Source: a virus
Taxonomy: Duplodnaviria > Heunggongvirae > Uroviricota > Caudoviricetes
Direction: 5' to 3' (one strand)
Length of the DNA: 15,433 nt
IMG/VR virus record: IMGVR_UViG_3300014970_000025
Shown: positions 1,585 to 14,591 of the stretch, in pieces
Layout of the letters: every line of letters starts with the position of its first letter
Numbering within the stretch: position 1 is the first letter of the stretch
Notes under the pieces: model-generated
Database searches by the model: none
What the model was told of the DNA's origin: nothing
What the model saw: the letters and a program-made list of their open reading frames with translations, nothing else
Program-made: the position numbers and the translations under genes

Positions 1585-1625
1585 TCATTGTTCTTGCCCC
1601 CTTATTTCCAGACAGGGGGTGTATC

Positions 1626-2062: not shown

Positions 2063-2338
2063 TTCATCTGGGCCAATCCTTGCTCATAACAGGCATTCAC
2101 TTCAGTCATGGCAGAAAGGTATGCATGCTGGAGAAGTCGTGAAAGAAAAGAAGACTGCTGCGCCGTTTGTCGTCACGTTTATCTTCATTGGCTATGCAAG
2201 TCGTAATACAAGGTGGGACAAAACTGAGACACATAAGGCCTCGCAATGGCTTGCAAGGCTTTACATGTTTTGATGTGGTGGGACGTGTGAGCGCAGTGTT
2301 GATGGGGTAATGCTTTGAATTAGAAGCGGATTCTTATA

Positions 2339-2384
2339 ATTCGTAATGCGAAGGTCGTAGGTTCGACTCCTATTATCGGCACCA
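2339..2384 (+). repeat. thrW: 3' 46 nt of tRNA-Thr(CGU) gene (anticodon loop to CCA): attachment-site core / direct repeat; not a complete tRNA
   Basis: ATTCGTAATGCGAAGGTCGTAGGTTCGACTCCTATTATCGGCACCA matches, from memory, the 3' part of E. coli thrW (T-arm GGTTCGACTCC, acceptor 3' strand, CCA). The 5' half (GCCGATATAGCTCAGTTGG...) is not present upstream, so this is a partial copy, as left at junctions of tRNA-integrated elements. Confidence 0.75.
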
Positions 2385-2989: not shown

Positions 2990-3148
2990 ATGAAAAACAT
3001 TGCAGCTATCAAACGTAATAACCGCAAGATTCACGCTCGTAAGTTCCTGTCTACGCCAGAAGGAAAAGCCTGGCTAGAGCGTAAACAGAGAGAGAACGAA
3101 GAAAGAAAACTCCTTAGTGAGTTGAAATGGCTTAGAGAGGATTTCTGA
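2990..3148 (+). CDS. small basic hypothetical protein (52 aa; MKNIAAIKRNNRKIHARKFLSTPEGKAWLERKQRENEERKLLSELKWLREDF)
   Basis: ATG at 2990 preceded by GAGG about 7 nt upstream; below the 60-aa cutoff of the ORF track. Lys/Arg-rich and helical in character. No recognised family. Confidence 0.4.
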   Translation: MKNIAAIKRNNRKIHARKFLSTPEGKAWLERKQRENEERKLLSELKWLREDF

Positions 3149-3309
3149 AAATCTCCAGAACGCAACAGGGCGCATTCTAACGCTGTTTTCATTGCTTGGT
3201 ATAGGGATTATAGGTGATGTGTGTTTAATGCGTCTGTGAGCTTTTTTTGTGCCTTATTTTGCATTTTCATAATGCAGGAGAGAACACGGAAAGCCTTAAA
3301 ATTAATTAT

Positions 3310-3480
3310 TGGGGTATTTAAGGCTATTTTTAGGTGATTTAAGGGTATTAAACTTGATTTAATTGGTTAAAATATAAACAGATAGTTGTGTATCTTATTG
3401 GTTTATAAGGTTATTTTTAAATAAAGGTAAATAAAAAATAAATACCCATAAATAGCTATAAATACATCTAAATACCTATA
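3310..3480. repeat. iteron-like repeat arrays in AT-rich DNA (candidate origin or regulator-binding array)
   Basis: Three ~20-21-bp spaced units (G/T)ATTTAAGG(G/C)TAT at ~3314, 3335, 3355, with a related unit at ~3401; then TAAATA at 3428, 3439, 3449 and 3459, 3469 with exact 10-bp phasing for the last four (ATAAATACCC / ATAAATAGCT / ATAAATACAT / CTAAATACCT). Confidence 0.55.
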
Positions 3481-3491
3481 TCCCCTCCCTT

Positions 3492-3875
3492 ATGGCTAGA
3501 TTGCGAGAGGTGCTTAACGCGATTTTCAGCGCCCCCCGATCTGGAAAATCCAGAATCCCCAAATATCAGCAAGGAATTTTCTTGCGTAATCAACATCGTT
3601 TTTACCTATTAAATCATTACACAGAAAGCCTTTCTGTAATGTCTCTCACTAAACTTTCACTAAACACGAGAATGATCGGTTTTATGTCGGATCAGATGCT
3701 AGAAACAGCACCACGTCTCACAAGGGCTGTAAGCGATGAAACCAGTGTTTATGCGGGTGCAGGTCAAAATATAGGCCAAAATCCATTTAACATAATAAAC
3801 GTAATATGCACTAAGGAACACATAGAACGCCTTGAGTTGATGTATCAGGGGAAAAGTGGTGGATTTTTTACGTAG
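3492..3875 (+). CDS. hypothetical protein (127 aa), doubtful
   Basis: ORF present in track but no Shine-Dalgarno (ATG preceded by CCCCTCCCTT), composition unremarkable, no recognisable domain. May be non-coding. Confidence 0.25.
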   Translation: MARLREVLNAIFSAPRSGKSRIPKYQQGIFLRNQHRFYLLNHYTESLSVMSLTKLSLNTRMIGFMSDQMLETAPRLTRAVSDETSVYAGAGQNIGQNPFNIINVICTKEHIERLELMYQGKSGGFFT

Positions 3876-3894
3876 GAGCACGAGAGGGCTTCTA

Positions 3895-3922
3895 TTGACT
3901 TTTGTATGCTATGAAATATAAT
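3895..3922 (+). promoter_or_regulatory. near-consensus sigma-70 promoter (TTGACT-N16-TATAAT)
   Basis: TTGACT at 3895-3900 and TATAAT at 3917-3922, 16-nt spacer; directs rightward transcription into an ORF-poor region. Confidence 0.5.
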
Positions 3923-4356
3923 AGAAGGTTTTTATTTTTATGTTGATAGTGATTGCACATTAAAGATTGAAAGCAAATTTAAACATAAATTTTCAACACG
4001 TGAAAGAAACTTGTTCGACAAATAATAGATTGATTTTTAATCAACAATTTCTGATAGTGCTCTGTAAGCCGCATTACACAAGGCTTTGCGAAAGTGATGT
4101 AAAAGTGAAGAAAGCTAACATTGCTCTTTTAAGCCACTTTTCATTGAATTTTTAGTATGGAATTACATAGGGATTAATCATCAATTACATTGAATTTAAG
4201 CCTGTTTTAGATAGCAAGAAACACTTTTACTGATTATAAGAAGATCATTGCACAGATGTTATGTGATGGATGTAACGGTAGGTCACTGTGAACTATCCCC
4301 TACAGAATTTTGTTACCTATTAGATCAACTATCAAACTACAATTAAATTATCTTTT

Positions 4357-4576
4357 ATAAATTCTTTTATCTTTAAAGAATAATTATAGGGATACCCGTT
4401 GGATGTAACGATGGGTTACATCGGCAGATGACCGGGGGGGTCGGTCACGATGACCGGGGGGGGTCGGTCACGATGACTGACAATAAGATTACTTTAATAA
4501 TACTAATAATAAAACTAACATCTATAATACTAATAAATTCTTTTATCTTTTAAGAATAATTATAGGGATACCCGTT
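4357..4576. repeat. 44-bp direct repeat pair (43/44 identical) flanking a hairpin and tandem G-tract palindromes
   Basis: DR1 4357-4400 and DR2 4533-4576: ATAAATTCTTTTATCTTT(A/T)AAGAATAATTATAGGGATACCCGTT. Between them: hairpin GATGTAAC-gatgg-GTTACATC (4402-4422); tandem units GATGACCGGGGGGGTCGGTCAC (4427-4448) and GATGACCGGGGGGGGTCGGTCAC (4449-4471), each containing the palindrome TGACCG-N7-CGGTCA; partial third unit 4472-4480. Confidence 0.8.
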
Positions 4577-4581
4577 AGGGG

Positions 4582-4655
4582 AGTCTAACGACTATCCCTT
4601 AATCTATTGGCATTCGCCAGAACCTTGCACAAGTTAGAGTGTTAGTCGTTAGACT
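4582..4655. repeat. 12-bp perfect inverted repeat AGTCTAACGACT / AGTCGTTAGACT separated by 50 bp
   Basis: Arms at 4582-4593 and 4644-4655. The core CTAACG recurs at 4823-4830 (TCTAACGA) and in a bulged hairpin GCGTTACCCC-ttt-GGGGatgcTAACGC at ~4889-4914. Confidence 0.7.
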
Positions 4656-5183
4656 GCTTGTCATAACACATAGTTTTTGTTTGTTGATGTTAGTTAGTAG
4701 ATCTATGTTCGCTAATGCCGCTCACAACGAATATGTAATCTACTATGTGCAAATAGCCTACGGCTTGCGTAAGGCTAAATAGTCTTGCGCTGTGCGCAGA
4801 ACGATAATTAACTAACTACCATCTAACGATCATCAATCATCTAAAATAAATTTCTTGTGCAATGTTCTTGCGAATGCAATTAGGGTAGCGTTACCCCTTT
4901 GGGGATGCTAACGCATAACTATAGATCAACCATCAAACAGACAAAAAAGAAAAATATGGTTTAAAGATGTTAGGTAGTAGATGAGTTTCTACCGCTTAAA
5001 TCAAGCCGTAGGCGAGCAAAACAACCTCTACATAAGGGAATGTATTGTTTTTATCAAAATCTCGTCAGAATGCGTTTTAGAGCGTTTTAGCGGATAATGA
5101 AGAATAGCACCACACAGGAGAGCACGAATTGATAAGAAAAAATGTAAGCGCATGAAAAAGATCAGGTTTTTTATGAAAAGGTA

Positions 5184-5212
5184 TTGACAAATGTTTCTTT
5201 ATATGTAATAAT
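5184..5212 (+). promoter_or_regulatory. sigma-70-like promoter (TTGACA-N17-AATAAT with upstream TG)
   Basis: TTGACA 5184-5189, TGT then AATAAT 5207-5212; sits ~120 bp upstream of the first gene of a + strand gene cluster. Confidence 0.5.
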
Positions 5213-5330
5213 AGGTATTAAAGGGACAGGAAAATATTCTTATCCTCTAAGTAATTAAACCAATGCACCGCACTTTGAAGCCCAAGGCTTGCAAGGTGTC
5301 TATTTCTTTTAACTGAATAAGGAGTTTTTT

Positions 5331-5513
5331 ATGAAATGGTTTACATCGGAACGCGTCGTAGAGGCATTTAAAAAAGGTGAGCTAACACGACATCAAATAG
5401 TAATGAATCGTAATATGGCAAGGAGTCGAGGTTATCCAGAGCGTGAAAAATGCTTTGACGATGCACTAAAAATTATTGATGAACTGCGTAAGGCAGAGGC
5501 AGAGAAAGAATAA
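5331..5513 (+). CDS. small hypothetical protein (60 aa)
   Basis: Strong SD (AAGGAG, 6-nt spacing) before ATG 5331; product MKWFTSERVVEAFKKGELTRHQIVMNRNMARSRGY..., no family recognised. Confidence 0.55.
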   Translation: MKWFTSERVVEAFKKGELTRHQIVMNRNMARSRGYPEREKCFDDALKIIDELRKAEAEKE

Positions 5514-5534
5514 TAACAAGAGAAGGAGAAAACT

Positions 5535-5705
5535 ATGAGCGAAACTACAGAAAAGAAAAGACAACCACGCACTTGCTTTCATATTCCTGATGAAGTATTT
5601 CAGGTGTTATTTAAAGAAGCAAGAAGTAAACGTATCACTGTTACAGATTACATTCTTGATATGTTGAAAAGAGAGGCTGAAACACTCTCAAATAAAAGCA
5701 AGTGA
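5535..5705 (+). CDS. Arc-like ribbon-helix-helix (RHH) DNA-binding protein (56 aa)
   Basis: SD AGGAG before ATG 5535; below ORF-track cutoff. CFHIPDEVFQVLFKEARSKRITVTDYILDMLKRE aligns by eye with P22 Arc (FNLRWPREVLDLVRKVAEENGRSVNSEIYQRVMESF): beta-strand followed by two helices, RHH pattern. Confidence 0.65.
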   Translation: MSETTEKKRQPRTCFHIPDEVFQVLFKEARSKRITVTDYILDMLKREAETLSNKSK

Positions 5706-5759
5706 TTTTTATCACCATAGTAGCGCCGTAGAGCGTGATTACATACAGGAGATTTTTTA

Positions 5760-6386
5760 ATGATTAACCAACCAACTTTTACAAAACACTATGACACGTT
5801 CGATAACATCTCGAAGATTTACTCTGATAAATTGCCTCAAGGAAAAGATTTAGAGCTATTACACATTGTGCTTTATTTTCGATTTCTTAGTTATCAGGAG
5901 AACAATCTTAATTGTTACGAAAGTCACGAGACATTAGCTAAGATTTTTAAGGCTTCGGTATCAACGATTCAACGTAAGATTAAAGATCTTAAGGAGATGG
6001 GGTTATTAGATACATCCCCGCACTCTGATCCTAACATTACATCCCTTGTTTATACTGCTCTCCCTCTCACAGATGCACACATTACACCACCGGAAGACGT
6101 GAAATTCGCTGTAAACGTAGAACGGGCTGCACCTGAATATCAGGAAACATTAGAAGCGACACACTCTATTGAGCAGGAAACACAGGAATCAGCGTTCCCT
6201 GAGCGGCCCGAAATTTTTACTTGGCTTCTTTCCCTTGATAAGAAGAAACCACCACACGAAGAAACAGAAGATTTTGTAAAACGAGCATTAGATTCAAAGA
6301 ATATCTATCTTTGTGAAAATGATTTTGACTCTTTGATAATTGATCTCAAAAGTGAGAGCACAATATATGATTCACTACCCTTCTAA
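5760..6386 (+). CDS. winged-HTH DNA-binding protein, replication-initiator/organizer-like N-terminal domain (208 aa)
   Basis: SD AGGAG before ATG 5760. N-terminal LLHIVLYFRFLSYQENNLNCYESHETLAKIFKASVSTIQRKIKDLKEMGLLD follows the pattern of phage/plasmid Rep-type winged-helix domains; C-terminal half acidic and unassigned. Confidence 0.7.
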   Translation: MINQPTFTKHYDTFDNISKIYSDKLPQGKDLELLHIVLYFRFLSYQENNLNCYESHETLAKIFKASVSTIQRKIKDLKEMGLLDTSPHSDPNITSLVYTALPLTDAHITPPEDVKFAVNVERAAPEYQETLEATHSIEQETQESAFPERPEIFTWLLSLDKKKPPHEETEDFVKRALDSKNIYLCENDFDSLIIDLKSESTIYDSLPF

Positions 6387-6521
6387 GGAGAATAAATGAC
6401 TTATAACATCACAAACAATCAATAACAACAGATCGGGCAATACATATGGCAAATGCATTTATGGCGATATTCATCGTAACAATGGCATTCAGTTTTTATA
6501 ATCCACATAAAAAGAGGGAAA

Positions 6522-6905
6522 ATGGGAAGAAAGAAGAAGAACAACTTAAAACGTATTGAAAAAAACAGTAACTTCAATTCAACAAGACAACGTCCACCGA
6601 CACACACCAATAACGAAATTCCAGGGGAAGAGATAATATTTATTCTTGAAACAGAATCCCCTGAATTAAGCGATGAAGAATTAGAAATAATCCAGTCAAT
6701 GCCAGGCGTTTACTTTCGCCCAAGAACAAGAAAACAAACTATCATTTCTGATGGCACTCTGAAACGTTGGCAGCTTTTAGGGTTTAGCTCCTATCATCAT
6801 TTTTTGGGATTTAACGCTTTCAATAATTGTGTAGGTGGTGCATCGGAAGTCGATCTGATGGCTCATTTAGAAGATACATTAGCTTCTAACAAACGTTCTA
6901 ACTAA
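6522..6905 (+). CDS. hypothetical protein (127 aa), basic N-terminus and acidic middle
   Basis: SD GAGGG before ATG 6522; no family recognised. Confidence 0.5.
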   Translation: MGRKKKNNLKRIEKNSNFNSTRQRPPTHTNNEIPGEEIIFILETESPELSDEELEIIQSMPGVYFRPRTRKQTIISDGTLKRWQLLGFSSYHHFLGFNAFNNCVGGASEVDLMAHLEDTLASNKRSN

Positions 6906-6920
6906 TAAAATGATGGGCGT

Positions 6921-7166
6921 ATGTATAAGCGCCCAATGAAAATATTCAAAAAAGGAAAAATAATGATTGGCTATATTCAAGAAACACAATTATTTCAGAT
7001 GATCCTGTCTGATGCAAAAAACTATGCTGAGTTAATCCGACTGGCAAAAGAAACAGAAGACTACGAAGCATTAGAGCGTTATCGTGATGAAGTGCTGACG
7101 CTCAAGACACCTTTTAACATCGTATTGAATATGATTAATGATGCATTACAAGGAGAAGCCGCATAA
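6921..7166 (+). CDS. small hypothetical helical protein (81 aa; alternative start 6963 gives 67 aa)
   Basis: Internal ATG 6963 has the better SD (AAGGAAAAATAATG). Stop overlaps the next start (TAATG at 7164-7168), suggesting translational coupling. Confidence 0.45.
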   Translation: MYKRPMKIFKKGKIMIGYIQETQLFQMILSDAKNYAELIRLAKETEDYEALERYRDEVLTLKTPFNIVLNMINDALQGEAA

Positions 7167-7474
7167 TGGAAGAAGATATTAGCAATGCAATGGAACAACT
7201 TTTAGATCTGACTATCTCACTACAAACAAGAATAAATCAAGCCTATTCAGATTTATGTGATTACACGCTCTCTCAATGCGTTATTAGCTTAATGAAGGTG
7301 AATGTAAGCCTTGACGATTTTATCTCTCTGGTGAGCGATTTAGAGCTATCAGAGGACGATGCAAAACAGTGTAATCAAATCATCACAGACATCGCCACCA
7401 CGTTAAAGGTTGCAAGTGAAGAGATTCAGCAATTAGTAGATGATTTAGCAAAAAGTGCTATTTTCTCTAAATGA
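7166..7474 (+). CDS. acidic helical hypothetical protein (102 aa)
   Basis: Start overlaps the upstream stop; product rich in D/E/L/I; no family recognised. Confidence 0.55.
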   Translation: MEEDISNAMEQLLDLTISLQTRINQAYSDLCDYTLSQCVISLMKVNVSLDDFISLVSDLELSEDDAKQCNQIITDIATTLKVASEEIQQLVDDLAKSAIFSK

Positions 7475-7487
7475 TAATGAAAATTAT

Positions 7488-7516
7488 TTGCATTTATAAT
7501 GATTTTGTTATATAAT
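7488..7516 (+). promoter_or_regulatory. near-consensus sigma-70 promoter (TTGCAT-N17-TATAAT)
   Basis: TTGCAT 7488-7493, TATAAT 7511-7516, plus a second TATAAT at 7495-7500; followed by ~0.9 kb without any + strand ORF above ~25 codons. Confidence 0.5.
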
Positions 7517-8401
7517 AATTTTAGGGGTAGATAAAAAGATTTTAGTTGGTGTTAATCCTTCTACTGTCATAAATCCCTGCATATGGAAGGTGATAGCCTC
7601 AAAGGTTGAGTGGCATTAACCTCTAACAAATATTACCTTCCATCTCTCAAGAAGTTTTAGAATAATCATAACTCCCTCTTTGATTGTTGATTGTTTCTAC
7701 GTTGTGTTGATGAATGTTGTTAGGCATTGTGCTTAATTTTGATAAAAGCGGGTAGGTGTTATCTCCTTGCCCTTCCCGCTCTTATTTTTCATCTATGCTT
7801 ATCCTAAAGCTCCTTATTTTGTCCGAAAACATTAAAGAGCCTTACACTGATAGTTATATTTTATAACTATTTACTAACATCATTAAACTCTTATTTAATG
7901 ACGGAAGTTAGTAACAGAATAATCTATTAAGTTGTTGTCAAAAAACTATCATCTGCATAGCGTTAGCCGCAAGTAGAGAGAGTTTAGCTAAGAATGGTGC
8001 AATAAACTTTGGAAATATTGATAGCAAAACGGGTTTTATAGAATGCGGATCTATAAGCTTTGGTTGTAAAAACGATTTTCTGAAACGGTAGATTACTGTT
8101 GGTGTAGTTAATCCTATTAAAATTTGATCTGTGAGTAGATTAGAATTGGAATAGTGATTCCTTAAAGCCTTACTTTGTTGCATCCACAGCAAAAACAGGC
8201 AGCGGTTTAGCCCCCGCATCGAATAGCAGGATCGTAGATTCCAAAGGGTTGGCCCCTCCTAAGAGCCAATTTCTCCTGCGGTCCTGTTATTCACCCTTAA
8301 CATATCTCTAAGCGTATTTATAAAAGTATTCTTAGAGATAACGTTAAACCTCCTCAAAGTTGACTTATCACAATATGTATTTTGCCCGATACAAAATAAA
8401 T

Positions 8402-8452
8402 AAGCCCCTTGCTATTGTTGATTGAACCTCTTATAGCCTGGGGCTTTTTATT
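8402..8452 (+). terminator. stem-loop followed by T-run (possible intrinsic terminator or RNA 3' structure)
   Basis: AAGCCCC (8402-8408) pairs with GGGGCTT (8440-8446), followed by TTTTATT; loop is long (31 nt) so classification is tentative. Confidence 0.3.
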
Positions 8453-8480
8453 ACTCGGAACATAACGGAATCGTTATTTT

Positions 8481-8690
8481 ATGAAACAAGAAATTATCCT
8501 GAAATATGGCAATGAAAAGTTAACACTAACTGAGGATGTGTTGAATGCTACAGCCTACGCGCTTGGCATCACTCCTACAGAATTAAAGAAACAGTGTGAA
8601 CGTCTTTATAAGGCTGACAGCAATAAACCATCTCACCAAGATTTGATTAATGCTAAAGCTCAACAAATCAAACAATCTAAGGAAAAATAA
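8481..8690 (+). CDS. small hypothetical protein (69 aa), possible HTH-like segment
   Basis: Stop overlaps the start of the next gene (TAATG at 8688-8692). Segment ATAYALGITPTELKKQ is HTH-like. No family assigned. Confidence 0.5.
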   Translation: MKQEIILKYGNEKLTLTEDVLNATAYALGITPTELKKQCERLYKADSNKPSHQDLINAKAQQIKQSKEK

Positions 8691-9064
8691 TGGCTATTTT
8701 AAAATTAAGCGATGTTTTCCCACATCGTAAAAGCATCACTGACGTAGTGAGCTATGCAACCGACCCTTACGCGGCTGTAGAAAGCAAAAAATTTGCAGCA
8801 CTTGCACAAGATGTAACGTGCGGCGACCTCATTGATTCATCCGGCGCTAAATATGTTAGCGGCGCTGATGTTCTTGTCGTTGTGTCTGACTTCGTAACTG
8901 CTGATTCAAATAAAACAGTTAACGTGCTTCGTGCTAATGCCGGACTCGTTTGCATCAAAGCTGATGCCCTGAATGCCGAAGGCGCTGTAAAAGAAGCTGC
9001 TATTGCAGCTCTCGCTGCTAAAGGCTTCCAGCTTGAAGGCTTCCACTCTGTTTTCACATCTTAA
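8690..9064 (+). CDS. putative head decoration protein (lambda gpD/SHP-like position and size, 124 aa)
   Basis: SD AAGGA; lies immediately upstream of an E-like major capsid gene, as D does in lambdoid head modules; size typical; Ala/Val/Gly-rich. Assignment rests mainly on synteny and composition. Confidence 0.45.
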   Translation: MAILKLSDVFPHRKSITDVVSYATDPYAAVESKKFAALAQDVTCGDLIDSSGAKYVSGADVLVVVSDFVTADSNKTVNVLRANAGLVCIKADALNAEGAVKEAAIAALAAKGFQLEGFHSVFTS

Positions 9065-9080
9065 GAAGGAATAAATAATA

Positions 9081-10109
9081 ATGATTATCGGAAATGAAGT
9101 GGTTGATCTTGCTCCACTGTTTGAATTAAACGATACCCGTAACTATCTGCTGTCTACTCTGGATTTTACTGATCCTGTGCCTGTAGAAAGTCACAAAGTG
9201 GCTGTTTCCCAGCTTATCGAGAGCAATGAATCTCTGTTCAACCATCCTACAAGCCGTTTTAGCTCTGAGCATAACGTTACTAAACGTGAAAACGCGGAAG
9301 AGTGGCTGATTGAAATTCCTTATTTCCTGCGTGAAGACCTGATCACACCGCAGGACGTGCAAGGCAAACGAAAAGCCGGAAGCTCTATTGAAGAAACACT
9401 GCCGGATCTGTATGCGGAATATATCGCTAAACACAATGTTGCATTCCAGCGCACTAAAGAAAGCATCCTCGCGGCTTCTCTGTTCTCTGGCAAGACGCAT
9501 ACCCCGAAAACTGACGATGTTCTGATCGACTACAGCACTCTGTTCGGTGTGTCTCCAATGACTGCAACCGTTGACGCATCCAGCACCAACACAATGACTG
9601 TGTTCAAACAGTTTGACCAGATGCATACGGATATGATTGCTAAAGCACAAAGCCAGGCTGCAACCATTGAGCGTGTTGTTGTGTTCTGTAAGCCTGCGGC
9701 ATTCAACGCTATTCGTTACAGCGTTGGCATGGTTAATGCGTTCCAATATGCAAGCCCTGTAGACGATGCAAACGTGGTGTTTAATGTGCGCTCTCTGCTG
9801 CCTGGTGTAACTACTTTCACCATTCCAGGAACTAACATTGATCTGATCAAAGTGACTGATCCGCTGCTGCTGGCACATATGACCGCAGACGCTGTAGCTG
9901 TTCCTAAATTCGCTAAAGGTGCAGGTGTTTACCAATCTATTTATGGCGCTCCTTCCAGTTCCTTCGATCTGCTGTCTCAAGGCGCTAAAGAGTATTACAG
10001 CTATGCTTTCGAATCGAATCGCGGCGACGCAGTGCACGTAGTGACCGAGAATAGCTCGCTTGTGGTTAACCACGGTGTTGGCTTCTCTGTGCAGATCACA
10101 GTAGCGTAA
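9081..10109 (+). CDS. phage major capsid protein, lambda gpE-like family (342 aa)
   Basis: SD AAGGAA; length nearly identical to lambda gpE (341 aa); C-terminus ...VVNHGVGFSVQITVA resembles gpE ...DPDEFVSVQLA and internal ERVVVFCKPAAFNAIRYS resembles gpE NIIVFDPKGWALFRSF (by recall). Confidence 0.8.
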   Translation: MIIGNEVVDLAPLFELNDTRNYLLSTLDFTDPVPVESHKVAVSQLIESNESLFNHPTSRFSSEHNVTKRENAEEWLIEIPYFLREDLITPQDVQGKRKAGSSIEETLPDLYAEYIAKHNVAFQRTKESILAASLFSGKTHTPKTDDVLIDYSTLFGVSPMTATVDASSTNTMTVFKQFDQMHTDMIAKAQSQAATIERVVVFCKPAAFNAIRYSVGMVNAFQYASPVDDANVVFNVRSLLPGVTTFTIPGTNIDLIKVTDPLLLAHMTADAVAVPKFAKGAGVYQSIYGAPSSSFDLLSQGAKEYYSYAFESNRGDAVHVVTENSSLVVNHGVGFSVQITVA

Positions 10110-10273
10110 AAAGTGTTAAAGACGTTCCCCTACGTCTGGAAATAATCGGGGGGCAATAAGGGTAAGGAGATTAACTAACCTGTAGGCGCAAATACAGTAA
10201 CGAATCTCTTTGCCCTTTTTGTTTTTCTACTGTCTACAAATCCAAATAAAAATATATATGTGAGAGAAAACCA

Positions 10274-10471
10274 ATGAACACAGAAAATTCACAGGCATTA
10301 ATTCTTAAATCTGTAAAAGAACTGGCAGCTATTAGCGATGACTCAATAATCAATGTCAGTGCCTTATGCAGAATGCTTTCAATTGATGCAAATAATGTGC
10401 GGCAGCGTGTGTTTCAGACCGGGTGCAGCACTTTCGAAGCAATCCAATATTATTGTTCTAAAAAACAATAA
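10274..10471 (+). CDS. small hypothetical protein (65 aa)
   Basis: Weak SD; segment VSALCRMLSIDANNVRQR is HTH-like; uncertain. Confidence 0.35.
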   Translation: MNTENSQALILKSVKELAAISDDSIINVSALCRMLSIDANNVRQRVFQTGCSTFEAIQYYCSKKQ

Positions 10472-10505
10472 CAAACAACAATCATAATACAGGGAAACAA
10501 TCAGT

Positions 10506-12347
10506 ATGTTAGAACTAAACGTGGCACGCCTCTCGAACGTTGTCACCTTCGAAGTTAACCGACCATCATTAGAGAAAGCAAAAGCAGAAGTAGAAAAACT
10601 TCGTAAACAAATGGCGGCGGTGAAAGATATAGAATTGCGTGTTAAGACACATAAACAATCAACCGCTAAAGCAAAAAAAGACGTAGACGATATTGCTAAA
10701 AAGCAAGCACAGGCAGATAAAGCCAATGCTAAAGCACAATTAGCCGCTCAACGTGTAGTTGCAAGAGAACAAAAAGCCCTGGCAGCACGGAAAGAGAAGG
10801 CTGAATTAAAGCTTTTAGACGTTGGAGCAAGCATTAGCGCATTGCACCGTCTTTCTGTAGCGGAACAATATAAAGCTATTGCACAGGCTAGAGAAATTGC
10901 CCTCCAATATGAAAGAGGCGCTATTAGTCTGGCACGTATGAATAGCCAAATGAAACGCCTACAACAGCAACAACGTAAGATTAATGGCAATCGTAACGCT
11001 CACGCTAAAGCCTATGCACCTGTTAAGGGTAGCGGGAGTATTGGCGGCGGTGCTGCGGCTGTTATGCTGGGTGGCTTAGGCGCTGGCGCTGCATATATGG
11101 CTATGAGCAAAGCTTCTGAATTTGTTACTAACAGCTTTGCGAATGCTGAAACGCTGGGAGAATTGTATAGCCGTGCGAAGCTGGGCGGTGTAGACGTTAA
11201 CCAGATGAACAATATTGAGCAATGGGCGTATAAAAACGGCGTTGATTCAATGATGGGGGATCAAGGTAAACGTAAGTATCTCGATCAGATGAAAGATGTG
11301 CGTGAGCGTGCAACCAAAAGCTATGATGAGGCTGAATATGTAGTCGATAAAAAAACAGGCAAAGGTGAATGGAAGGGCGGCGATAGCGGCATCAACGTTC
11401 TCATGAACGAAGGATTCTTAACTAAGAAAGATTTGAAAGACTTTGCTGATAATCCTGCTGGCCTGGTTAGTAAAGCAGTTCAGGGAATGGTAGCTAAAGG
11501 CTATTCAGATGCACAAATCGGTAGTCGTCTTGAAGACTTGGGCGATGATTTGATGCTCACCTCTAAATACTGGACACGCTCCGCTAAAGAAGTGGAACAA
11601 TCAGCACGAGAACAACGAGAATCAGGGCGCTGGGTAACACAGGCACAACAGGAAAGCGTTATTAAATTCCGTGAACTGAATAATGCACTTAGTGGGCTTT
11701 CTGACTCACAAGGGATCGCCTTTGTTGATGGCTTTATGAAATCTCTTGATCCGAAAGTGATTGAAGAGTTTAAAAAGAGCATGGTTGCAATGCTGCCAAT
11801 GTTTACCAAATTAGGCGAGGCTATCGGCGGATTGGTTAACGCTGTAATGAAAGCAATCAACTGGCTGATGAAAAACGACGAGAAGACGGCAGCTATTCAG
11901 AAGAATTTAGGTGATGCACCGCCACTATCTAACGAAGGAATGAAGCAGAATCTTTCTAATCTCACTCCTGATCAATATAAAGGCGCTGGCACCGGAACAA
12001 CTAAGCCAGATAACAGCAATTCCCTGGTTAACACTATTAAAAGCTGGTTTATGCCAGAAGAAACGGTAGGTGGGGCGCAGGCTGTAAATCAATACAGTCT
12101 CGAAGGACAAAACATTGCAAATCTGAAACAGAGTGCAGCACAACAAGCTTTCAAGGCTCCTTCTTACACCTTTGCACCTGTTATTAACTTCAATCCAGAA
12201 TTACAAGTAAATGCAGAAGTGCCGCTAACTATCGAATCAGACACCGGACGATTGAGCGAATTTATCGACTTCAAATCAAAGGCATCCTCCGCTGAGTTTA
12301 GCAAGCTATTAACGCTGGGTGTTATGTCAGGCGGGTCAACCTATTAA
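10506..12347 (+). CDS. tape-measure-like protein: long Lys/Ala/Gln coiled-coil N-terminus, Gly-rich hydrophobic segment, large C-terminal region (613 aa)
   Basis: Residues ~20-170 are heptad-like charged helix (EKAKAEVEKLRKQ...KAQLAAQRVVAREQKALAARKEKAELK), followed by GSGSIGGGAAAVMLGGLGAGAAYMAMS (membrane-like). This architecture is typical of phage tail tape-measure or ejection proteins. No enzymatic motif seen. Confidence 0.5.
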   Translation: MLELNVARLSNVVTFEVNRPSLEKAKAEVEKLRKQMAAVKDIELRVKTHKQSTAKAKKDVDDIAKKQAQADKANAKAQLAAQRVVAREQKALAARKEKAELKLLDVGASISALHRLSVAEQYKAIAQAREIALQYERGAISLARMNSQMKRLQQQQRKINGNRNAHAKAYAPVKGSGSIGGGAAAVMLGGLGAGAAYMAMSKASEFVTNSFANAETLGELYSRAKLGGVDVNQMNNIEQWAYKNGVDSMMGDQGKRKYLDQMKDVRERATKSYDEAEYVVDKKTGKGEWKGGDSGINVLMNEGFLTKKDLKDFADNPAGLVSKAVQGMVAKGYSDAQIGSRLEDLGDDLMLTSKYWTRSAKEVEQSAREQRESGRWVTQAQQESVIKFRELNNALSGLSDSQGIAFVDGFMKSLDPKVIEEFKKSMVAMLPMFTKLGEAIGGLVNAVMKAINWLMKNDEKTAAIQKNLGDAPPLSNEGMKQNLSNLTPDQYKGAGTGTTKPDNSNSLVNTIKSWFMPEETVGGAQAVNQYSLEGQNIANLKQSAAQQAFKAPSYTFAPVINFNPELQVNAEVPLTIESDTGRLSEFIDFKSKASSAEFSKLLTLGVMSGGSTY

Positions 12348-12357
12348 TCATCACTGT

Positions 12358-12373
12358 GGGGCTGTTTAGCCCC
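12358..12373 (+). terminator. GC-rich hairpin GGGGCT-gttt-AGCCCC with weak U-tract
   Basis: Perfect 6-bp stem, 4-nt loop, 10 nt after the stop of the 613-aa gene; followed by CTTAAAT rather than a strong T-run. Confidence 0.35.
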
Positions 12374-12394
12374 CTTAAATAAGGATTACAAATT

Positions 12395-13072
12395 ATGGCA
12401 ATGGGTCCGTTAACCATTGGTCGCCCGACTGAGGCGAAAATCAACAGCACAAGCAACGATAGCAACGGTAGAACAACCAAAGGGGGTAACGGCTTTGCGA
12501 TCATTGCCTCTAACCTCGGCAGTGGTGCAAATGCTGCTTACAATGACTACCAGGCATTATCATTTGATAGCGTGGAATCGACGAAAGTTAGCAGAAATGC
12601 GGACGTTACAAGCTATGCCGTCGAATCAGGATCAGAAGTTAGTGATCATGTTCAAATACGGAATAACAAGTTCACATTACAAGGGCGTATCTCTGAAACC
12701 GTATTGAAGCTCAATCCCGATATGATTAAGAATGCGGGAATTAACGGCAATAGACGTATGCTTATGCTTGAATACCTAAATCAGTTGATGGACAGTCGCC
12801 AACCTTTCCTACTTGTCACTGAGTTAAAAAATTATGACAACGTTGTGTTAGTTGGCATGTCTTACGAAGAAGAAGCAAGCGAAAGTATATTGTTTACTCT
12901 TGATTTTGAGCAAATTCGTCTTGTCTCTAAGGCCACCACTAATGCTATTGCTGTAAAAACAGCACCAAATAAATCTGTAGGGGGACAGGTTAAAATGCAG
13001 GTAAATACAACAGAACAGAAAAATCAAAAAAGCCCAGGGCAAGACGTTGTAACACCAGTATTTAAACAATAG
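12395..13072 (+). CDS. hypothetical protein (225 aa), Ser/Thr/Asn-rich N-terminus; possible virion-associated protein
   Basis: SD AAGGA 9 nt upstream; follows the tape-measure-like gene; no family recognised. Confidence 0.6.
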   Translation: MAMGPLTIGRPTEAKINSTSNDSNGRTTKGGNGFAIIASNLGSGANAAYNDYQALSFDSVESTKVSRNADVTSYAVESGSEVSDHVQIRNNKFTLQGRISETVLKLNPDMIKNAGINGNRRMLMLEYLNQLMDSRQPFLLVTELKNYDNVVLVGMSYEEEASESILFTLDFEQIRLVSKATTNAIAVKTAPNKSVGGQVKMQVNTTEQKNQKSPGQDVVTPVFKQ

Positions 13073-13153
13073 CCTTAAACGCCTATGAAACGCTCTGTAA
13101 CGATGTAATTATAAAAGAGGCTACCAATCTATGTTGAAGCCTCCTTATTACGT

Positions 13154-14488
13154 CTATGGCGTTGTTTTACGCCTTAAATTTGATTTTTTATTGATTGATA
13201 AGCCTTTCTCTATTTCAGGGTAGCGTAAAAGCTCAATATATTTTTTAAGCTCTACTGGAGAAGCTGCATTTTTGCTATATGTGCGGAATGTTTCTGTATT
13301 GCCGCGTGTATGGCCCAGGAGAAGGGCGATCCTGTCTTCTGGAATTTGATTTCGATCAAGAAGCTGTGCTACTCCGTGTCTCAGAGAATGAAACACTTTC
13401 CTTTCTGTTCCCTTTTCCCCTAAAGCCTTTCGTTTAGCTCTTGTAAATCGTTGTGTATGCCACGTAGAGCGTTTACCGTCAGCACGTTCTGTAATGCTGG
13501 CGTGATAGAACAAAAAGCCATTGTGAGGCTTTTCACGCAGCGACAACACCAACGGAGTGATAAGGCTATGTACAGGCACAACACGTGCCGCTGCTTTCGT
13601 CTTTCCCTGTGTGATTTCAAAACACAGCACACCTTCGATCTCTTTCACATCGTCTATTGTGAGACTTGCTATCTCATTGATCCGCATACCTGTATATAAA
13701 CCGATAAGACACAAAGCCGTCATTTCTTTGTTTTCTGCTGAATTACCGGAAAATACTTGCAACACCTGCAATAGCTCTTTGTTAGAAAATGCCTCGTAGC
13801 TCTCTCTACTTTGTGCCACATCAAGCCTATGCCCTCGCCAGGGGGAGAGCGCCCTTTCTGGCGCATCGTGGTAACGTGATGAAGCTAACTCCCATAGCTG
13901 GGCCATTGGGCTGATATAATTTGCAATTGATTGTTGTGAAAGAGTTTTTTGCATGTGTTCAATCCAGCCTGTAACAGTGGTGCGGCTTACGTCTTGCAAT
14001 GCAATATCAGGCTTTTTACGGTAGGAGAGAAACATCTCTACCGCTTTTCTTGCCTTAGCTAAAGTGGCTGGCTTCTTCTTCGTGCTGTTAATTGTCAGGT
14101 AGATTTCAAGAATTTTAAGCAATGACGGACACGAAGACGCTGTATCTTGCATTCTGGTAGCTGTTTTGGCGTATTTAGCCTTACTGCGTAACAGTTCCAG
14201 CGTGTTTTCTATTGTGCTGTTTACAGGGGCAACACTCTCCCGTAAGCAATGGTATTCATCTGCAATCTGATCACGCTTTCTACGTGCAACACGAAGATTA
14301 CTTGTGTGCAGACTTCTGACAAACGTCCTTTTTCCTTCAAAAAAGGGCTGCATATACACAGGCAGCGTGATCCTTAAATAGTAGTTACCGTAAGAATCAC
14401 AGATTAAGTATTGGTTAGGCTTGTATCTCATAAAATCTCCGGCTAAAGTGTCGGAGCGTTTGTAATGTGAAAATTGATTGTGACGCAT
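13154..14488 (-). CDS. tyrosine site-specific recombinase (phage/P4-type integrase, 444 aa; alternative start at 14431)
   Basis: Catalytic-domain motifs TGMRINE (Arg), HSLRHGVAQ (His-x-x-Arg), LLGHTRGNTETFRTYSK (His, Tyr nucleophile); N-terminal YLRITLP...FFEGKRTFVRSL typical of tRNA-site integrases; lies adjacent to a tRNA-Thr-derived repeat. Confidence 0.9.
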   Translation of the reverse strand: MRHNQFSHYKRSDTLAGDFMRYKPNQYLICDSYGNYYLRITLPVYMQPFFEGKRTFVRSLHTSNLRVARRKRDQIADEYHCLRESVAPVNSTIENTLELLRSKAKYAKTATRMQDTASSCPSLLKILEIYLTINSTKKKPATLAKARKAVEMFLSYRKKPDIALQDVSRTTVTGWIEHMQKTLSQQSIANYISPMAQLWELASSRYHDAPERALSPWRGHRLDVAQSRESYEAFSNKELLQVLQVFSGNSAENKEMTALCLIGLYTGMRINEIASLTIDDVKEIEGVLCFEITQGKTKAAARVVPVHSLITPLVLSLREKPHNGFLFYHASITERADGKRSTWHTQRFTRAKRKALGEKGTERKVFHSLRHGVAQLLDRNQIPEDRIALLLGHTRGNTETFRTYSKNAASPVELKKYIELLRYPEIEKGLSINKKSNLRRKTTP

Positions 14489-14528
14489 AGAAAATGATTA
14501 TTTTTCTATAAGATTCAATCAATTAGTA

Positions 14529-14591
14529 ATGGTCGTAGGTGATGGCATTAACACGAGATTAATCGAGTGTTTTACTCCTATTATCGCACCA
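14529..14591 (+). pseudogene. degenerate tRNA-Thr 3'-end copy (ptwF-like att remnant)
   Basis: GGTCGTAGGT (14531-14540) ... ACTCCTATTATCGCACCA (14574-14591) matches the thrW 3' end except for a ~33-bp insertion replacing the T-loop and one missing G; same orientation as the 2339-2384 copy. Confidence 0.6.

What the first reader, a model, noticed from the sequence alone, without database searches (positions are those of the whole stretch)
10274..13072. Tape-measure-like 613-aa protein and 225-aa partner with no tail tube, sheath or baseplate genes
The 613-aa protein has the coiled-coil plus Gly-rich hydrophobic architecture of tape-measure or ejection proteins. It sits directly after the capsid gene with only a 65-aa ORF between, and is followed by one 225-aa ORF and then the integrase. 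Its position at the integrase-proximal end, where prophages often carry accessory cargo, raises the alternative that it is a membrane-associated accessory protein (for example superinfection exclusion or defence) rather than a structural one.
Basis: inference. Interest (0 to 1): 0.5.

Follow-up and report, generated by a model that had tools for sequence, protein, structure and literature searches.

The report
Phage-satellite tape measure and tube initiator
The two genes are a tail tape-measure protein and a tail-tube initiator related to those of large lytic phi92-type coliphages, carried with a capsid gene on a 12-kb integrating island that looks like an undescribed phage satellite able to build the core of its own virion from a helper phage's parts.

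Summary
In detail: a 65-aa, a 613-aa and a 225-aa ORF sit between a capsid gene and an integrase, and there are no tube, sheath or baseplate genes. The 613-aa protein is an end-to-end homologue of the phi92 tape-measure protein gp134. The 225-aa protein is 51-54% identical to the phi92/phAPEC8 tail-tube initiator gp135, whose structure is solved.

They belong to a 12.2-kb island in thrW, bounded by tRNA-derived repeats. The same six-gene module (about 67 aa, about 124 aa, capsid, about 65 aa, tape measure, tube initiator) recurs in relatives down to 33% tape-measure identity. These relatives use other integrases and another chromosomal site, and some are 13.8-14.0-kb circularly assembling molecules without an integrase. 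No relative examined has further tail genes, except one that adds an adaptor and a Pam3_gp18-like gene. dN/dS is 0.05-0.30.

The island also holds a 40-nt perfect copy of the boundary of phi92's direct terminal repeat. A sister variant carries the phAPEC8-type version.

Best reading: a new family of satellites of virulent Stephanstirmvirinae that assembles chimeric tails, as shown for Vibrio PLEs in 2026, and its own capsid shell. This is inferred from sequence only. About 9% of complete E. coli genomes carry such a pair.

The parts
2339..2384 (+). attL: 3' part of tRNA-Thr (thrW), the left boundary of the island. Sequence to its left (1-2338) belongs to a different island.
   Evidence: The match to E. 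coli SF-088 starts inside its annotated tRNA-Thr. An 18-nt direct repeat lies at 2361-2378 and 14569-14586. Sequence read. ARAGORN finds no whole tRNA in the window.
3491..3573 (+). Copy of the helper phage's terminal-repeat boundary; candidate terminase recognition or cut site. Positions 3501-3540 are 40/40 identical to phi92 nt 357-318, and a CAAATATCA box follows.
   Evidence: the match straddles the end (nt 343) of phi92's annotated 343-bp left direct terminal repeat; a related motif occurs once in most E. coli-clade family members examined; the sister variant matches phAPEC8-type phages.
3900..5330 (.). AT-rich stretch with no ORF of 50 aa or more. It holds a 44-nt direct repeat (4357, 4533) and a 21-nt tandem repeat (4434, 4457). 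Possible replication origin; function not shown.
   Evidence: No Rfam family.
5760..6386 (+). 208-aa HTH_36 protein, similar to replication initiators.
   Evidence: Pfam HTH_36 3.7e-07. PHROG replication-initiation families around 1e-06.
6522..6905 (+). 127-aa core protein of unknown function, found in most relatives examined.
   Evidence: tblastn hits in most of the related loci compared, at 29-100% identity. No Pfam or PHROG hit.
8481..8690 (+). 69-aa protein that heads the capsid operon. It is conserved in position, and a stable hairpin plus U-run precedes it.
   Evidence: Alignment A4; upstream sequences; fold z-score -3.6.
8690..9064 (+). 124-aa protein in the position of the phi92 cement/decoration protein gp123. 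This identity is putative, not proven.
   Evidence: Same size and position as gp123. Both have a C-terminal ...FTS end. hhalign is not significant. The AF2 model is poor (pLDDT 60). The top Foldseek hits are small chains of the Sf14 capsid, at E 0.18.
9081..10109 (+). Major capsid protein of the lambda gpE / HK97-fold family, 342 aa.
   Evidence: Pfam Phage_cap_E 9.4e-19, full length. 24% identity over the full length to phi92 gp124.
10274..10471 (+). 65-aa four-helix protein directly upstream of the tape measure. It is conserved in position across the family; its function is unknown (chaperone or small DNA-binding protein).
   Evidence: Alignment A3. AF2 pLDDT 87. No significant fold match. 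No similarity to phi92 gp133. A hairpin plus U-run lies upstream.
10506..12347 (+). Tape-measure protein, 613 aa, homologue of phi92 gp134 (659 aa).
   Evidence: phrog_16051 3.7e-32. BLASTP against gp134 5e-27, with N- and C-termini aligned. PDB 21vq_V 1.9e-21. Identity by region. dN/dS 0.13-0.30.
12395..13072 (+). Tail-tube initiator, 225 aa, homologue of phi92 gp135.
   Evidence: Pfam Dit_like 1.4e-27. 51% identity to gp135 and 54% to the Phapecoctavirus protein. PDB 21vq_N 6e-55, plus 'tube initiator' chains 9cuy_K and Pam3 gp17. Role of gp135 taken from PMC13450770. dN/dS 0.05-0.14.
13154..14488 (-). Tyrosine integrase (DUF6538 + SAM-like + catalytic domains).
   Evidence: 98-99% identical in all thrW relatives.
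14569..14590 (+). attR: imperfect repeat of the thrW 3' end. The flank beyond it is the yagP (LysR fragment) / paoD region.

Best explanation
The 613-aa and 225-aa proteins are a tape-measure protein and a tail-tube initiator. They belong to a roughly 12.2-kb thrW-integrated mobile element that is a satellite of virulent phi92/phAPEC8-type myoviruses (Stephanstirmvirinae).

Proposed mechanism:
1. When such a phage infects, the element replicates with its own initiator.
2. The phage terminase acts on the element's copy of the phage's terminal-repeat boundary.
3. The DNA is packaged into a shell made of the element's own capsid protein, probably with its own cement protein, on the helper's portal and scaffold.
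4. Tails are assembled on the helper's hub, spike, wedges, tube and sheath. The two innermost parts are replaced by the satellite's versions: the trimeric tape measure inside the tube, and the hexameric initiator ring on which the tube starts. This gives a chimeric and probably slightly shorter tail.

Shown here: the homologies, the gene set, its conservation and selection, the element boundaries, the autonomous circularly assembling relatives, and the shared terminal-repeat-boundary sequence. Inferred only: helper dependence, packaging, incorporation of the two proteins into tails, and any harm to the helper.
For: (1) Identity of the proteins.
- TMP: phrog_16051 3.7e-32. BLASTP against phi92 gp134 gives 5e-27, with the first 33 residues and the C-terminal tip aligned. 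The C-terminal region of gp134 is the part seen inside the phi92 baseplate.
- Identity is highest at residues 1-40, 241-360 and 601-613.
- 225 aa: Pfam Dit_like 1.4e-27, 51-54% identity to gp135-type proteins, and PDB 21vq_N 6e-55.

(2) Best phage relatives. All three structural proteins match roughly 150-kb strictly lytic myoviruses, and in the same gene order: cement, MCP ... TMP, initiator.

(3) A selective subset. Only MCP, TMP and initiator are present.

(4) The same module in many relatives.
- 24 thrW elements carry a mosaic of alleles.
- Others sit at the yciQ/rluB site with a different integrase.
- Members occur in Phytobacter and Buttiauxella; homologues of the 124-aa module protein are also named from Klebsiella, Pluralibacter and Dryocola, where context was not examined.
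- TMP identity goes down to 33%.

(5) Purifying selection: dN/dS is 0.13-0.30 for TMP, 0.05-0.14 for the initiator, and 0.10-0.21 for MCP within a type.

(6) Autonomous molecules. Contigs of 13,816 and 14,035 bp assemble as circles, seen as three different permutations. They have no integrase, and one has a ParA-like gene.

(7) Sequence shared with the helper.
- Window 3501-3540 equals phi92 nt 357-318, spanning the end of its 343-bp terminal repeat.
- The motif is present once in most E. coli-clade members examined.
- The L007-type variant shares 81% identity over 85 nt, and a 25/25-nt spacer, with phAPEC8-type genomes. In records that start at a physical end, the match lies about 270-360 nt from that end.

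(8) One clade's initiator is 75-78% identical to phi92 gp135, which points to repeated exchange with these phages.

(9) Precedent. Vibrio PLEs encode TMP, TAC and BhuB with 20/20/41% identity to ICP1's proteins, and build chimeric, 10-nm shorter tails (PMC12987554).

(10) TMP lengths. Ten family TMPs are 599-624 aa, against 659-662 aa in phi92 and ESCO5.
Against: - No experiment has been done: helper-dependent induction, packaging and transfer are all unobserved.
- The element lacks a portal, scaffold, protease and small terminase. Its capsid protein is only about 24% identical to phi92's, so co-assembly with helper head parts is not obvious.
- Identity to known phage TMPs is only 26-31%. The true helper may be an unsampled phage.
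- The terminal-repeat-boundary motif was not detected in the more distant, non-E. coli relatives, and no copy of the other repeat boundary was found. The motif could instead be a regulatory or recombination site.
- The circularly assembling contigs come from sequencing runs whose nature I could not look up. They could be plain plasmids.
- The identity of the 124-aa protein as a cement protein is unproven.
Confidence: 0.7

Rival explanations
1. Defence by structural mimicry without self-transfer. The island's capsid, tape-measure and tube-initiator look-alikes are decoys. They co-assemble with the parts of an infecting phi92-type phage and poison its head and tail assembly, protecting the population. 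The element would not itself be packaged.
For: - Blocking tail assembly is a known defence strategy of satellites and prophages: Tai systems (PMC11364771) and PLE11 Rta, which targets the ICP1 tape measure.
- The proteins keep the terminal regions that contact helper parts but diverge elsewhere.
- The alleles form a strong mosaic with high divergence beside a near-identical integrase, which looks like an arms race.
- The variable left arms of relatives carry defence genes such as retron RT, SduA_C and Imm_superinfect.
Against: - Decoys would not need a complete capsid protein, a copy of the helper's terminal-repeat boundary, own replication functions, or a narrow 12-14-kb size with autonomous circular forms.
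- No PADLOC model hits these proteins.
- In PLEs, interference and self-packaging coexist, so this rival is not exclusive of the best explanation.
Confidence: 0.15
2. Decaying remnant of a prophage related to phi92-type phages that has lost most of its head and tail genes. The surviving genes would have no present function.
For: The genes lie next to an integrase at a tRNA site that often holds defective prophages (CP4-6 in K-12, from my own knowledge; flank genes seen). RefSeq annotates them only as 'hypothetical protein' and 'phage baseplate protein'.
Against: - phi92-type phages are 150-kb lytic viruses with no integrase, from my own knowledge of the group; only parts of these genomes were read here.
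- Exactly the same six-gene subset is kept in lineages with 33-38% TMP identity, with three different integrases, and in plasmid-like forms.
- All the ORFs compared for selection are intact, with dN/dS 0.05-0.30.
- No relative has sheath, tube, hub, spike, portal or terminase genes.
- Element size is uniform at about 12-14 kb.
Confidence: 0.04
3. One reading: the 613-aa protein is a membrane-associated accessory protein (superinfection exclusion or another defence) carried as integrase-proximal cargo. The 225-aa protein is its partner, and neither has a role in a virion.
For: Two hydrophobic segments could span a membrane. Some RefSeq records call it a 'flotillin family protein'. Its position is next to the integrase.
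Against: - It is an end-to-end homologue of a tape measure whose C-terminus is seen in the phi92 baseplate. From my own knowledge, Gly-rich hydrophobic segments are common in tape-measure proteins.
- The partner is a tube-fold initiator ring protein.
- In the integrase-less circular relatives the pair keeps its place after the capsid gene, while true cargo (Imm_superinfect, a lipoprotein-like gene) follows it.
- No PADLOC hit.
Confidence: 0.03

Closest known systems
[quoted passage not shown]
   Same: - Both are small integrative elements apparently tied to a virulent myovirus.
- Both carry their own tape measure plus a baseplate-core protein that are only distantly similar to the helper's: 20% and 41% for PLE, against 26-31% and 51-54% here.
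- In both, the satellite's TMP is shorter than the helper's.
- Neither has tube, sheath or fibre genes.
- Both have defence cargo in variable regions.
   Different: - The host is Enterobacteriaceae and the presumed helper is a Stephanstirmvirinae phage.
- This element has a tyrosine integrase at thrW or yciQ/rluB, or no integrase at all.
- It has its own major capsid gene, whereas PLE remodels ICP1's coat with TcaP.
- No recognisable tail assembly chaperone was found; the 65-aa protein is unassigned.
- Sequence homology to PLE genes was not tested, because no PLE sequence was at hand.
- The PLE mechanism is experimentally shown; this one is inferred.
Capsid-forming PICIs (cf-PICIs)
   Same: Both are satellites that encode their own major capsid protein and take tails from a helper. 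Some cf-PICIs carry putative tmp genes (Extended Data Fig. 10 legend of PMC12987554).
   Different: cf-PICIs are defined by about 11 core genes, including terS, terL, portal, protease/decoration, head-tail adaptor and connector, alpA and a primase. None of the portal, terminase, adaptor or connector genes is present here. SatelliteFinder treats tail genes as forbidden components, so it would reject this element.
Satellite P4 (helper P2)
   Same: Similar genome size (about 11.6 kb for P4, from my own knowledge, against 12-14 kb). Both carry a copy of the helper's packaging or end sequence. Both appear to exist in integrated and plasmid-like forms.
   Different: P4 has no structural genes. It resizes P2's capsid with Sid and uses the P2 tail unchanged, and P2 is temperate. 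No psu, sid, delta or alpha homologues were found here.
phi92 gp134 (tape measure) and gp135 (tube initiator), cryo-EM structure PDB 21vq (PMC13450770)
   Same: Direct homologues in the same adjacent gene order. The TMP termini and the initiator's tube-like domain are conserved.
   Different: The window's genes are not in a phage genome. The TMP is 46 residues shorter and 26% identical. The initiator is 51% identical, though 75-78% in another clade of the family.

Membership tests
Tape-measure proteins of phi92/rV5-type myoviruses (PHROG 16051) | Sequence homology over the whole length, including the N-terminus and the C-terminal baseplate-bound tip | tested here: met
   phrog_16051 3.7e-32. 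BLASTP against gp134 5e-27, plus a match of residues 1-33 at 3e-05. PDB 21vq_V 1.9e-21. Regional identity 35-47% at residues 1-40, 241-360 and 601-613.
Tape-measure proteins of phi92/rV5-type myoviruses (PHROG 16051) | Gene lies directly upstream of the tube-initiator gene | tested here: met
   Window 10506-12347 is followed by 12395-13072. The same order holds in phi92 and ESCO5.
Tape-measure proteins of phi92/rV5-type myoviruses (PHROG 16051) | Sits as a trimer inside the tail tube and sets tail length | not testable with these tools
   This needs particles (EM, mass spectrometry). Only the length difference is known: 613 aa against 659-662 aa.
Tail-tube initiator / Dit_like (PF21821) | Matches the Pfam model above its curated cut-off | tested here: met
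   96.8 bits against a cut-off of 24.2, E 1.4e-27, model positions 1-125 of 127.
Tail-tube initiator / Dit_like (PF21821) | Homology to a structurally defined tube initiator | tested here: met
   phi92 gp135 (21vq_N) 6e-55; 9cuy_K 'tube initiator protein' 2.5e-10; Pam3 gp17 9.7e-04. gp135 is the hexameric tube initiator in PMC13450770.
Phage satellite (functional class) | Mobile element with its own integration or replication functions but an incomplete set of virion genes | tested here: met
   att repeats, integrase and an initiator-like protein are present. Only MCP, TMP and initiator of the helper-type structural set are present. The same holds in the relatives compared.
Phage satellite (functional class) | Carries the helper's packaging or end-recognition sequence | tested here: inconclusive
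   There is 40/40 identity to the phi92 terminal-repeat boundary, and a variant-specific match to phAPEC8-type phages. That the site is a terminase target is inferred. It was not found in distant relatives.
Phage satellite (functional class) | Helper-dependent induction, packaging and transfer | not testable with these tools
   This needs infection experiments.
PLE (Vibrio cholerae) | Family-specific core genes (large serine recombinase, RepA, NixI, CapR, TcaP, LidI ...) in Vibrio, with ICP1 as helper | not tested
   No PLE sequence was available for comparison. The host, the integrase type (tyrosine) and the presumed helper all differ, so it is treated as an analogue and not a member.
cf-PICI | Portal, large and small terminase, head-tail adaptor and connector, protease or decoration module (about 11 core genes) | tested here: not met
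   No such Pfam or PHROG hits in any island ORF. phi92 portal and terminase do not hit the window or its relatives. Definition taken.
P4-like satellites | psu, delta, sid, epsilon and alpha primase-helicase core genes | tested here: not met
   No corresponding Pfam or PHROG hits among the island proteins.
Defective prophage remnant | Relatives with fuller tail and head modules; pseudogenes; relaxed selection | tested here: not met
   No relative has sheath, tube, hub, spike, portal or terminase genes. dN/dS is 0.05-0.30.
Known anti-phage defence systems (PADLOC 2.0) | Match to a defence-protein model | tested here: not met
   No hit for the 65-aa, 613-aa or 225-aa proteins at E<=0.01.

The most novel reading that the evidence does not exclude
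A widespread family of 12-14-kb satellites, not described in the literature I could search, occurs in Escherichia and other Enterobacteriaceae and parasitises virulent phi92/phAPEC8-type myoviruses, a group used in phage-therapy work. About 9% of complete E. coli genomes carry one. Forms are integrated at thrW or yciQ/rluB, or are plasmid-like. The satellites build hybrid virions with their own capsid shell and their own tail core (tape measure plus tube initiator) on helper baseplate, tube and sheath. They are packaged through a mimic of the helper's terminal-repeat boundary, and allele variants are matched to different helper genera.
Probability: 0.6. Interest if true: 0.85.

Novelty: new variant of a known kind. 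Interest (0 to 1): 0.78.

Why it matters
If true, E. coli and its relatives carry a common satellite family aimed at large virulent myoviruses. So far that has been shown mainly for Vibrio (PLE with ICP1, and PICMIs).

It would be the second known case of a satellite that replaces the innermost tail parts of its helper. It would be the first to combine this with its own capsid protein while lacking portal and terminase genes. That makes the minimal requirements for hijacking a T=13 contractile-tailed virion directly testable in a tractable host, with a solved helper structure (phi92).

There are practical consequences. phi92-, phAPEC8- and rV5-type phages are popular therapy and biocontrol candidates. 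A resident element that diverts their assembly could lower their yield and spread genes between strains, including pathogens such as O104:H4, which carry the gene pair.

It also exposes a blind spot in current satellite finders, which reject candidate PICI-type elements that contain tail genes.

Tried and rejected
- **65-aa protein as the counterpart of phi92 gp133 or a tail assembly chaperone.** BLASTP and hhalign found nothing. The AF2 model is confident (pLDDT 87), but Foldseek against the PDB gave no hit better than E 2.7, only vague HTH-like matches. Function left open.
- **124-aa protein as the cement protein gp123.** BLASTP E 0.06 and hhalign E 0.032 are not significant. The AF2 model is poor (pLDDT 60). 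The top Foldseek hits are small Sf14 capsid chains at E 0.18. This is suggestive only.
- **Paralogy of the 69-aa and 65-aa proteins.** hhalign gave P 0.008 over 22 columns, which is not enough.
- **Rfam scan of the whole window.** No family found.
- **Simple promoter/terminator scan.** Nothing above the shuffled expectation. The long hairpins upstream of the operons were found by eye and by folding.
- **PADLOC and NCBIfam.** No hits for the three proteins.
- **Species-representative genome scan.** It returned only two loci.
- **The second (left) boundary of the phi92 terminal repeat in the satellites.** No match above noise.
- **The boundary motif in distant relatives.** Not detected.
- **The L003-type capsid protein.** It has no phage or PDB sequence match at all, so its capsid identity rests on position, size and 17-20% alignment to the window's capsid protein.
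- **PLSDB and INPHARED.** Neither holds the circular form.
- **Literature.** Seven searches found no description of this family. This covers only the open-access library held here.


Full report
**1. Observation**

- 65 aa at 10274-10471
- 613 aa at 10506-12347
- 225 aa at 12395-13072

They lie downstream of a 342-aa protein (9081-10109) that matches Pfam Phage_cap_E over its full length (E 9.4e-19). They lie upstream of a tyrosine integrase on the minus strand (13154-14488).

The 613-aa protein has a charged, Ala-rich first 165 residues. It has a Gly/Ala-rich hydrophobic stretch at 177-201 and a second hydrophobic stretch at 426-444. No other tail gene is present. Of all ORFs of at least 60 aa in the structural regions of phi92 (30 kb) and ESCO5 (24.6 kb), only the capsid protein, the tape measure and the gp135-type protein find a match in the window.

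**2. What the two proteins are**

The 613-aa protein:
- It hits PHROG 16051, 'tail length tape measure protein' (3.7e-32).
- It aligns with the phi92 tape measure gp134 from the first residue (MLELNVARLSNVVTFEV against MLEINTSKIKNTVTFTV) to the C-terminal tip (BLASTP 5e-27; PDB chain 21vq_V 1.9e-21).
- Identity is concentrated at residues 1-40 (35-47%), 241-360 (33-47%) and 601-613 (38-46%).
- In the cryo-EM structure of phi92, the C-terminal residues 631-656 of the gp134 trimer sit inside the baseplate (PMC13450770).

The 225-aa protein:
- It matches Pfam Dit_like far above the cut-off (1.4e-27).
- It is 51% identical to phi92 gp135 and 54% identical to the Phapecoctavirus homologue.
- It hits the solved gp135 chain at 6e-55, as well as chains named 'tube initiator' from other myoviruses.
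- In phi92, gp135 is the hexameric ring on the hub from which the tail tube grows.

So the pair is the tape measure and the tube initiator, which are the two innermost components of a contractile tail. They are encoded in the same order as in phi92 and ESCO5.

**3. The surroundings**

The window is an E. coli thrW locus.
- The match to strain SF-088 begins inside its tRNA-Thr.
- An imperfect repeat of the tRNA 3' end recurs at 14569-14590.
- This delimits an island of about 12.2 kb (about 2361-14590), with the integrase at its right end.
- Bases 1-2338 belong to another island, and the right flank is the yagP/paoD region.

Besides the structural genes, the island encodes:
- a replication-initiator-like HTH_36 protein (5760-6386)
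- several small ORFs
- a conserved 127-aa protein of unknown function (6522-6905)
- two long ORF-free stretches (3900-5330, with direct repeats, and 7475-8480)

None of its proteins matches a portal, terminase, protease, scaffold, sheath, tube or hub family.

**4. All three structural proteins point to one group of phages**

Their best matches in 50,697 phage records are roughly 150-kb lytic myoviruses of the phi92/phAPEC8 group. These are mainly Stephanstirmvirinae, with related Klebsiella, Citrobacter and Pseudomonas phages:
- tube initiator: up to 54% identity
- tape measure: 26-31%
- capsid: 24-26%

phi92's gene order is scaffold, cement gp123 (130 aa), capsid gp124 ... sheath, tube, chaperone, gp133, tape measure gp134, initiator gp135, plug, hub, spike. 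The island keeps a selective subset in the same order: 124 aa, capsid, 65 aa, tape measure, initiator.

**5. Relatives show a conserved design, not decay**

Twenty-four IMG/VR loci from E. coli genomes carry the same integrase (98-99% identical) but a mosaic structural module:
- One set is window-like.
- One set has 98% identical tape measure and initiator, but a capsid/124-aa pair only about 19-30% identical.
- One set has tape measure 62-71%, initiator 58% and capsid 73% identical.

More distant members keep the same series (about 67 aa, about 120 aa, capsid of about 345 aa, about 62 aa, tape measure of 599-624 aa, initiator of 211-237 aa). They have other integrases or other sites:
- L029/L030 (38% TMP identity)
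- L031 (33%), which adds a PhiTE-type head-tail adaptor and a Pam3_gp18-like gene
- L034 and L035
- Phytobacter and Buttiauxella loci
- the E. coli yciQ/rluB site, with a 557-aa integrase
- a clade, L042-L046, whose initiator is 75-78% identical to phi92 gp135

Two of them, L034 and L035, lack an intact initiator gene.

No relative has phi92-like terminase, portal, sheath, tube, chaperone, hub or spike genes.

Pairwise dN/dS:

| Gene | dN/dS |
|---|---|
| Tape measure | 0.13-0.30 |
| Tube initiator | 0.05-0.14 |
| Capsid (within a type) | 0.10-0.21 |

The tape-measure family is small: 69 cluster representatives among 1.84 billion proteins. It is nevertheless common in E. coli, where 491 of 5,426 complete genomes carry a homologous pair, always on the chromosome.

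**6. Autonomous forms exist**

A sister clade (tape measure 87% identical) sits on many contigs of 13.2-13.8 kb from public sequencing runs.
- Three of these contigs are circular permutations of one another.
- One has the k-1 terminal overlap of a circular, or terminally repeated, assembly of 13,816 bp.
- They carry no integrase. In its place are an Imm_superinfect gene and a lipoprotein-like gene, and they have a 492-aa helicase-like protein.
- A more distant member is a 14,035-bp circle with a ParA-like gene.
- Neither form is in PLSDB or INPHARED.

Element sizes are uniformly about 12-14 kb, close to 9% of the helper genome.

**7. A direct sequence link to the presumed helper**

I searched the non-structural half of the island against phage genomes. 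This found a short but striking match. Window 3501-3540 (TTGCGAGAGGTGCTTAACGCGATTTTCAGCGCCCCCCGAT) is 40/40 identical to phi92 nt 357-318, and 65 related phage records share it.
- In phi92 this stretch straddles position 343, the annotated end of the 343-bp left direct terminal repeat.
- The boundary falls within GCT|TAACGCG, the best-conserved core of the motif.
- A related motif, G(C/T)TTAACGCG-N5-TCA(G/A)C...N-CAAATATCA, occurs once, at a syntenic place, in most E. coli-clade family members examined, including the circular and rluB-site forms.
- Its conservation does not depend on the overlapping 127-aa ORF, which is absent or truncated in several members that keep the motif.
- The L007-type variant instead matches phAPEC8-type (Phapecoctavirus) genomes. 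Identity is 81% over 85 nt, with a 25/25-nt identical spacer. In records that start at a physical end, the match lies about 270-360 nt from that end.
- One member (L026) is a recombinant of the two versions.
- No similarity to the other boundary of the repeat was found. The motif was not detected in distant, non-E. coli relatives.

I read this as mimicry of the helper terminase's recognition or cut site. A regulatory site shared with the helper is the alternative. Either way it ties these islands specifically to Stephanstirmvirinae.

**8. Mechanism proposed**

The best-supported explanation is that the island is a satellite of virulent phi92/phAPEC8-type phages. On infection:
1. It replicates.
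2. It is cut and packaged by the helper terminase via the boundary mimic.
3. The DNA fills a small shell made of its own capsid protein, probably with the 124-aa protein as cement.
4. It is fitted with tails built on helper baseplate, tube and sheath, but containing the satellite's tape measure and tube initiator.

The satellite tape measures are 599-624 aa, against 659-662 aa in phi92 and ESCO5. With 24 tube rings for 659 aa in phi92, this predicts tails about two rings shorter (inference).

The precedent is recent. Vibrio PLEs encode a tape measure, a chaperone and a hub protein with 20/20/41% identity to ICP1's. They exclude ICP1's versions from their virions, have tails 10 nm shorter, and need their own TMP for transfer. 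One PLE additionally blocks the helper's TMP with an 80-aa protein (PMC12987554).

Why a satellite should own these two parts is not shown here. Possible reasons are escape from its own or the host's tail-directed interference, or discrimination between satellite and helper tails.

Steps shown: homology, gene content, conservation, selection, boundaries, autonomous forms and the shared motif. Steps inferred: induction, packaging, chimeric assembly and interference.

**9. Rivals**

- *Pure 'decoy' defence.* This is plausible and not exclusive, but it does not explain the full capsid gene, the end-sequence mimic, the replication functions or the size-constrained autonomous forms.
- *Decaying prophage.* This is contradicted by the identical minimal gene set in deeply diverged lineages and by purifying selection.

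**10. Unresolved pieces**

- The 65-aa protein is a confidently predicted four-helix protein (pLDDT 87). It has no significant fold match and no similarity to phi92 gp133. It is conserved in position in all family members.
- The identity of the 124-aa protein as a cement protein is only suggested, by position, size, a shared C-terminal ...FTS end, and weak Foldseek hits to Sf14 capsid accessory chains.
- Both structural operons are preceded by a stable hairpin followed by a U-run, in the eight family members examined. This hints at control by antitermination.

**11. Comparison with what is known, and novelty**

- It works like a PLE in its tail core.
- It resembles a cf-PICI in having its own capsid.
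- It resembles P4 in its end-sequence mimic and its apparent dual integrated/plasmid life.
- It fails the membership criteria of cf-PICI, PICI and P4-like families. It has no portal, terminases, adaptor or connector, and no psu, sid or delta.
- It differs from PLEs in host, integrase type and presumed helper.
- SatelliteFinder uses tail profiles as forbidden components for the PICI models, which would hide such elements.
- Seven full-text searches found no description of this family, nor of any satellite of Stephanstirmvirinae. This covers only the library held here.

I rate it a new variant of a known kind: a new satellite family that uses a recently discovered strategy. My confidence in the satellite reading is about 0.7.

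Noticed in passing
window 3491-3573 (core 3501-3540): A 40-nt perfect match to phi92 nt 357-318, spanning the end of its 343-bp direct terminal repeat. A related motif is found in most E. coli-clade family members examined, and a sister variant matches phAPEC8-type phages. It overlaps the start of a 127-aa ORF (3492-3875) that is dispensable in relatives.
   Followed up: yes
window 8395-8460 and 10135-10235: Stable hairpins followed by U-runs (z -3.6 and -4.1) lie just upstream of the 69-aa and 65-aa genes that head the two structural operons. Equivalent hairpins are present in all eight family members inspected. This may mean control by antitermination.
   Followed up: partly
window 3900-5330 and 7475-8480: Two long stretches without ORFs of 50 aa or more. 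The first is AT-rich, with a 44-nt direct repeat (4357, 4533) and a tandem 21-mer GGGGGGGTCGGTCACGATGAC (4434, 4457). It has no Rfam hit, and may be an origin with iterons or a non-coding RNA.
   Followed up: no
L003 (13,816 bp), L004, L037; L036 (14,035 bp): Integrase-less relatives that assemble as circles. The E. coli-type form carries Imm_superinfect and a lipoprotein-like gene where the integrase would be. L036 carries a ParA-like gene. Neither form is in PLSDB or INPHARED.
   Followed up: partly
L038 (E. coli BA92, between yciQ and rluB); also L035: A second chromosomal integration site for the same kind of element, with an unrelated 557-aa tyrosine integrase and a small 'recombinase family protein' next to the boundary motif.
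   Followed up: partly
L031 6739-7242 and 11809-12243: One distant relative also encodes a PhiTE-type head-tail adaptor and a Pam3_gp18-like protein. The number of helper parts replaced therefore varies within the family.
   Followed up: no
L042-L046: A clade whose tube initiator is 75-78% identical to phi92 gp135 while its tape measure is only 27-30% identical. This suggests repeated gene exchange with the phages.
   Followed up: partly
L007 6831-7862; L003 7991-9025: An alternative capsid-gene allele, 17-20% identical to the window's capsid protein, with no sequence match in phage records or the PDB. It is combined with a near-identical tape measure and initiator.
   Followed up: partly
window 6522-6905: A 127-aa protein (motif PGVYFRPRxRK) conserved in most relatives examined. 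It has no Pfam, PHROG, NCBIfam or PADLOC hit.
   Followed up: no
window 1-2338: A separate upstream island with an AraC-family regulator gene (832-1584) and a fragment of an IS3-family transposase (1626-1991, minus strand). Its match to chromosomes ends at the thrW-derived repeat, and no whole tRNA gene lies in the window.
   Followed up: no
left arms of relatives: The variable regions of related islands carry retron reverse transcriptase, a primase-helicase, a LexA-like regulator, a Shedu (SduA_C) protein and a Dam methylase. This is a cargo hotspot like that of other satellites.
   Followed up: no
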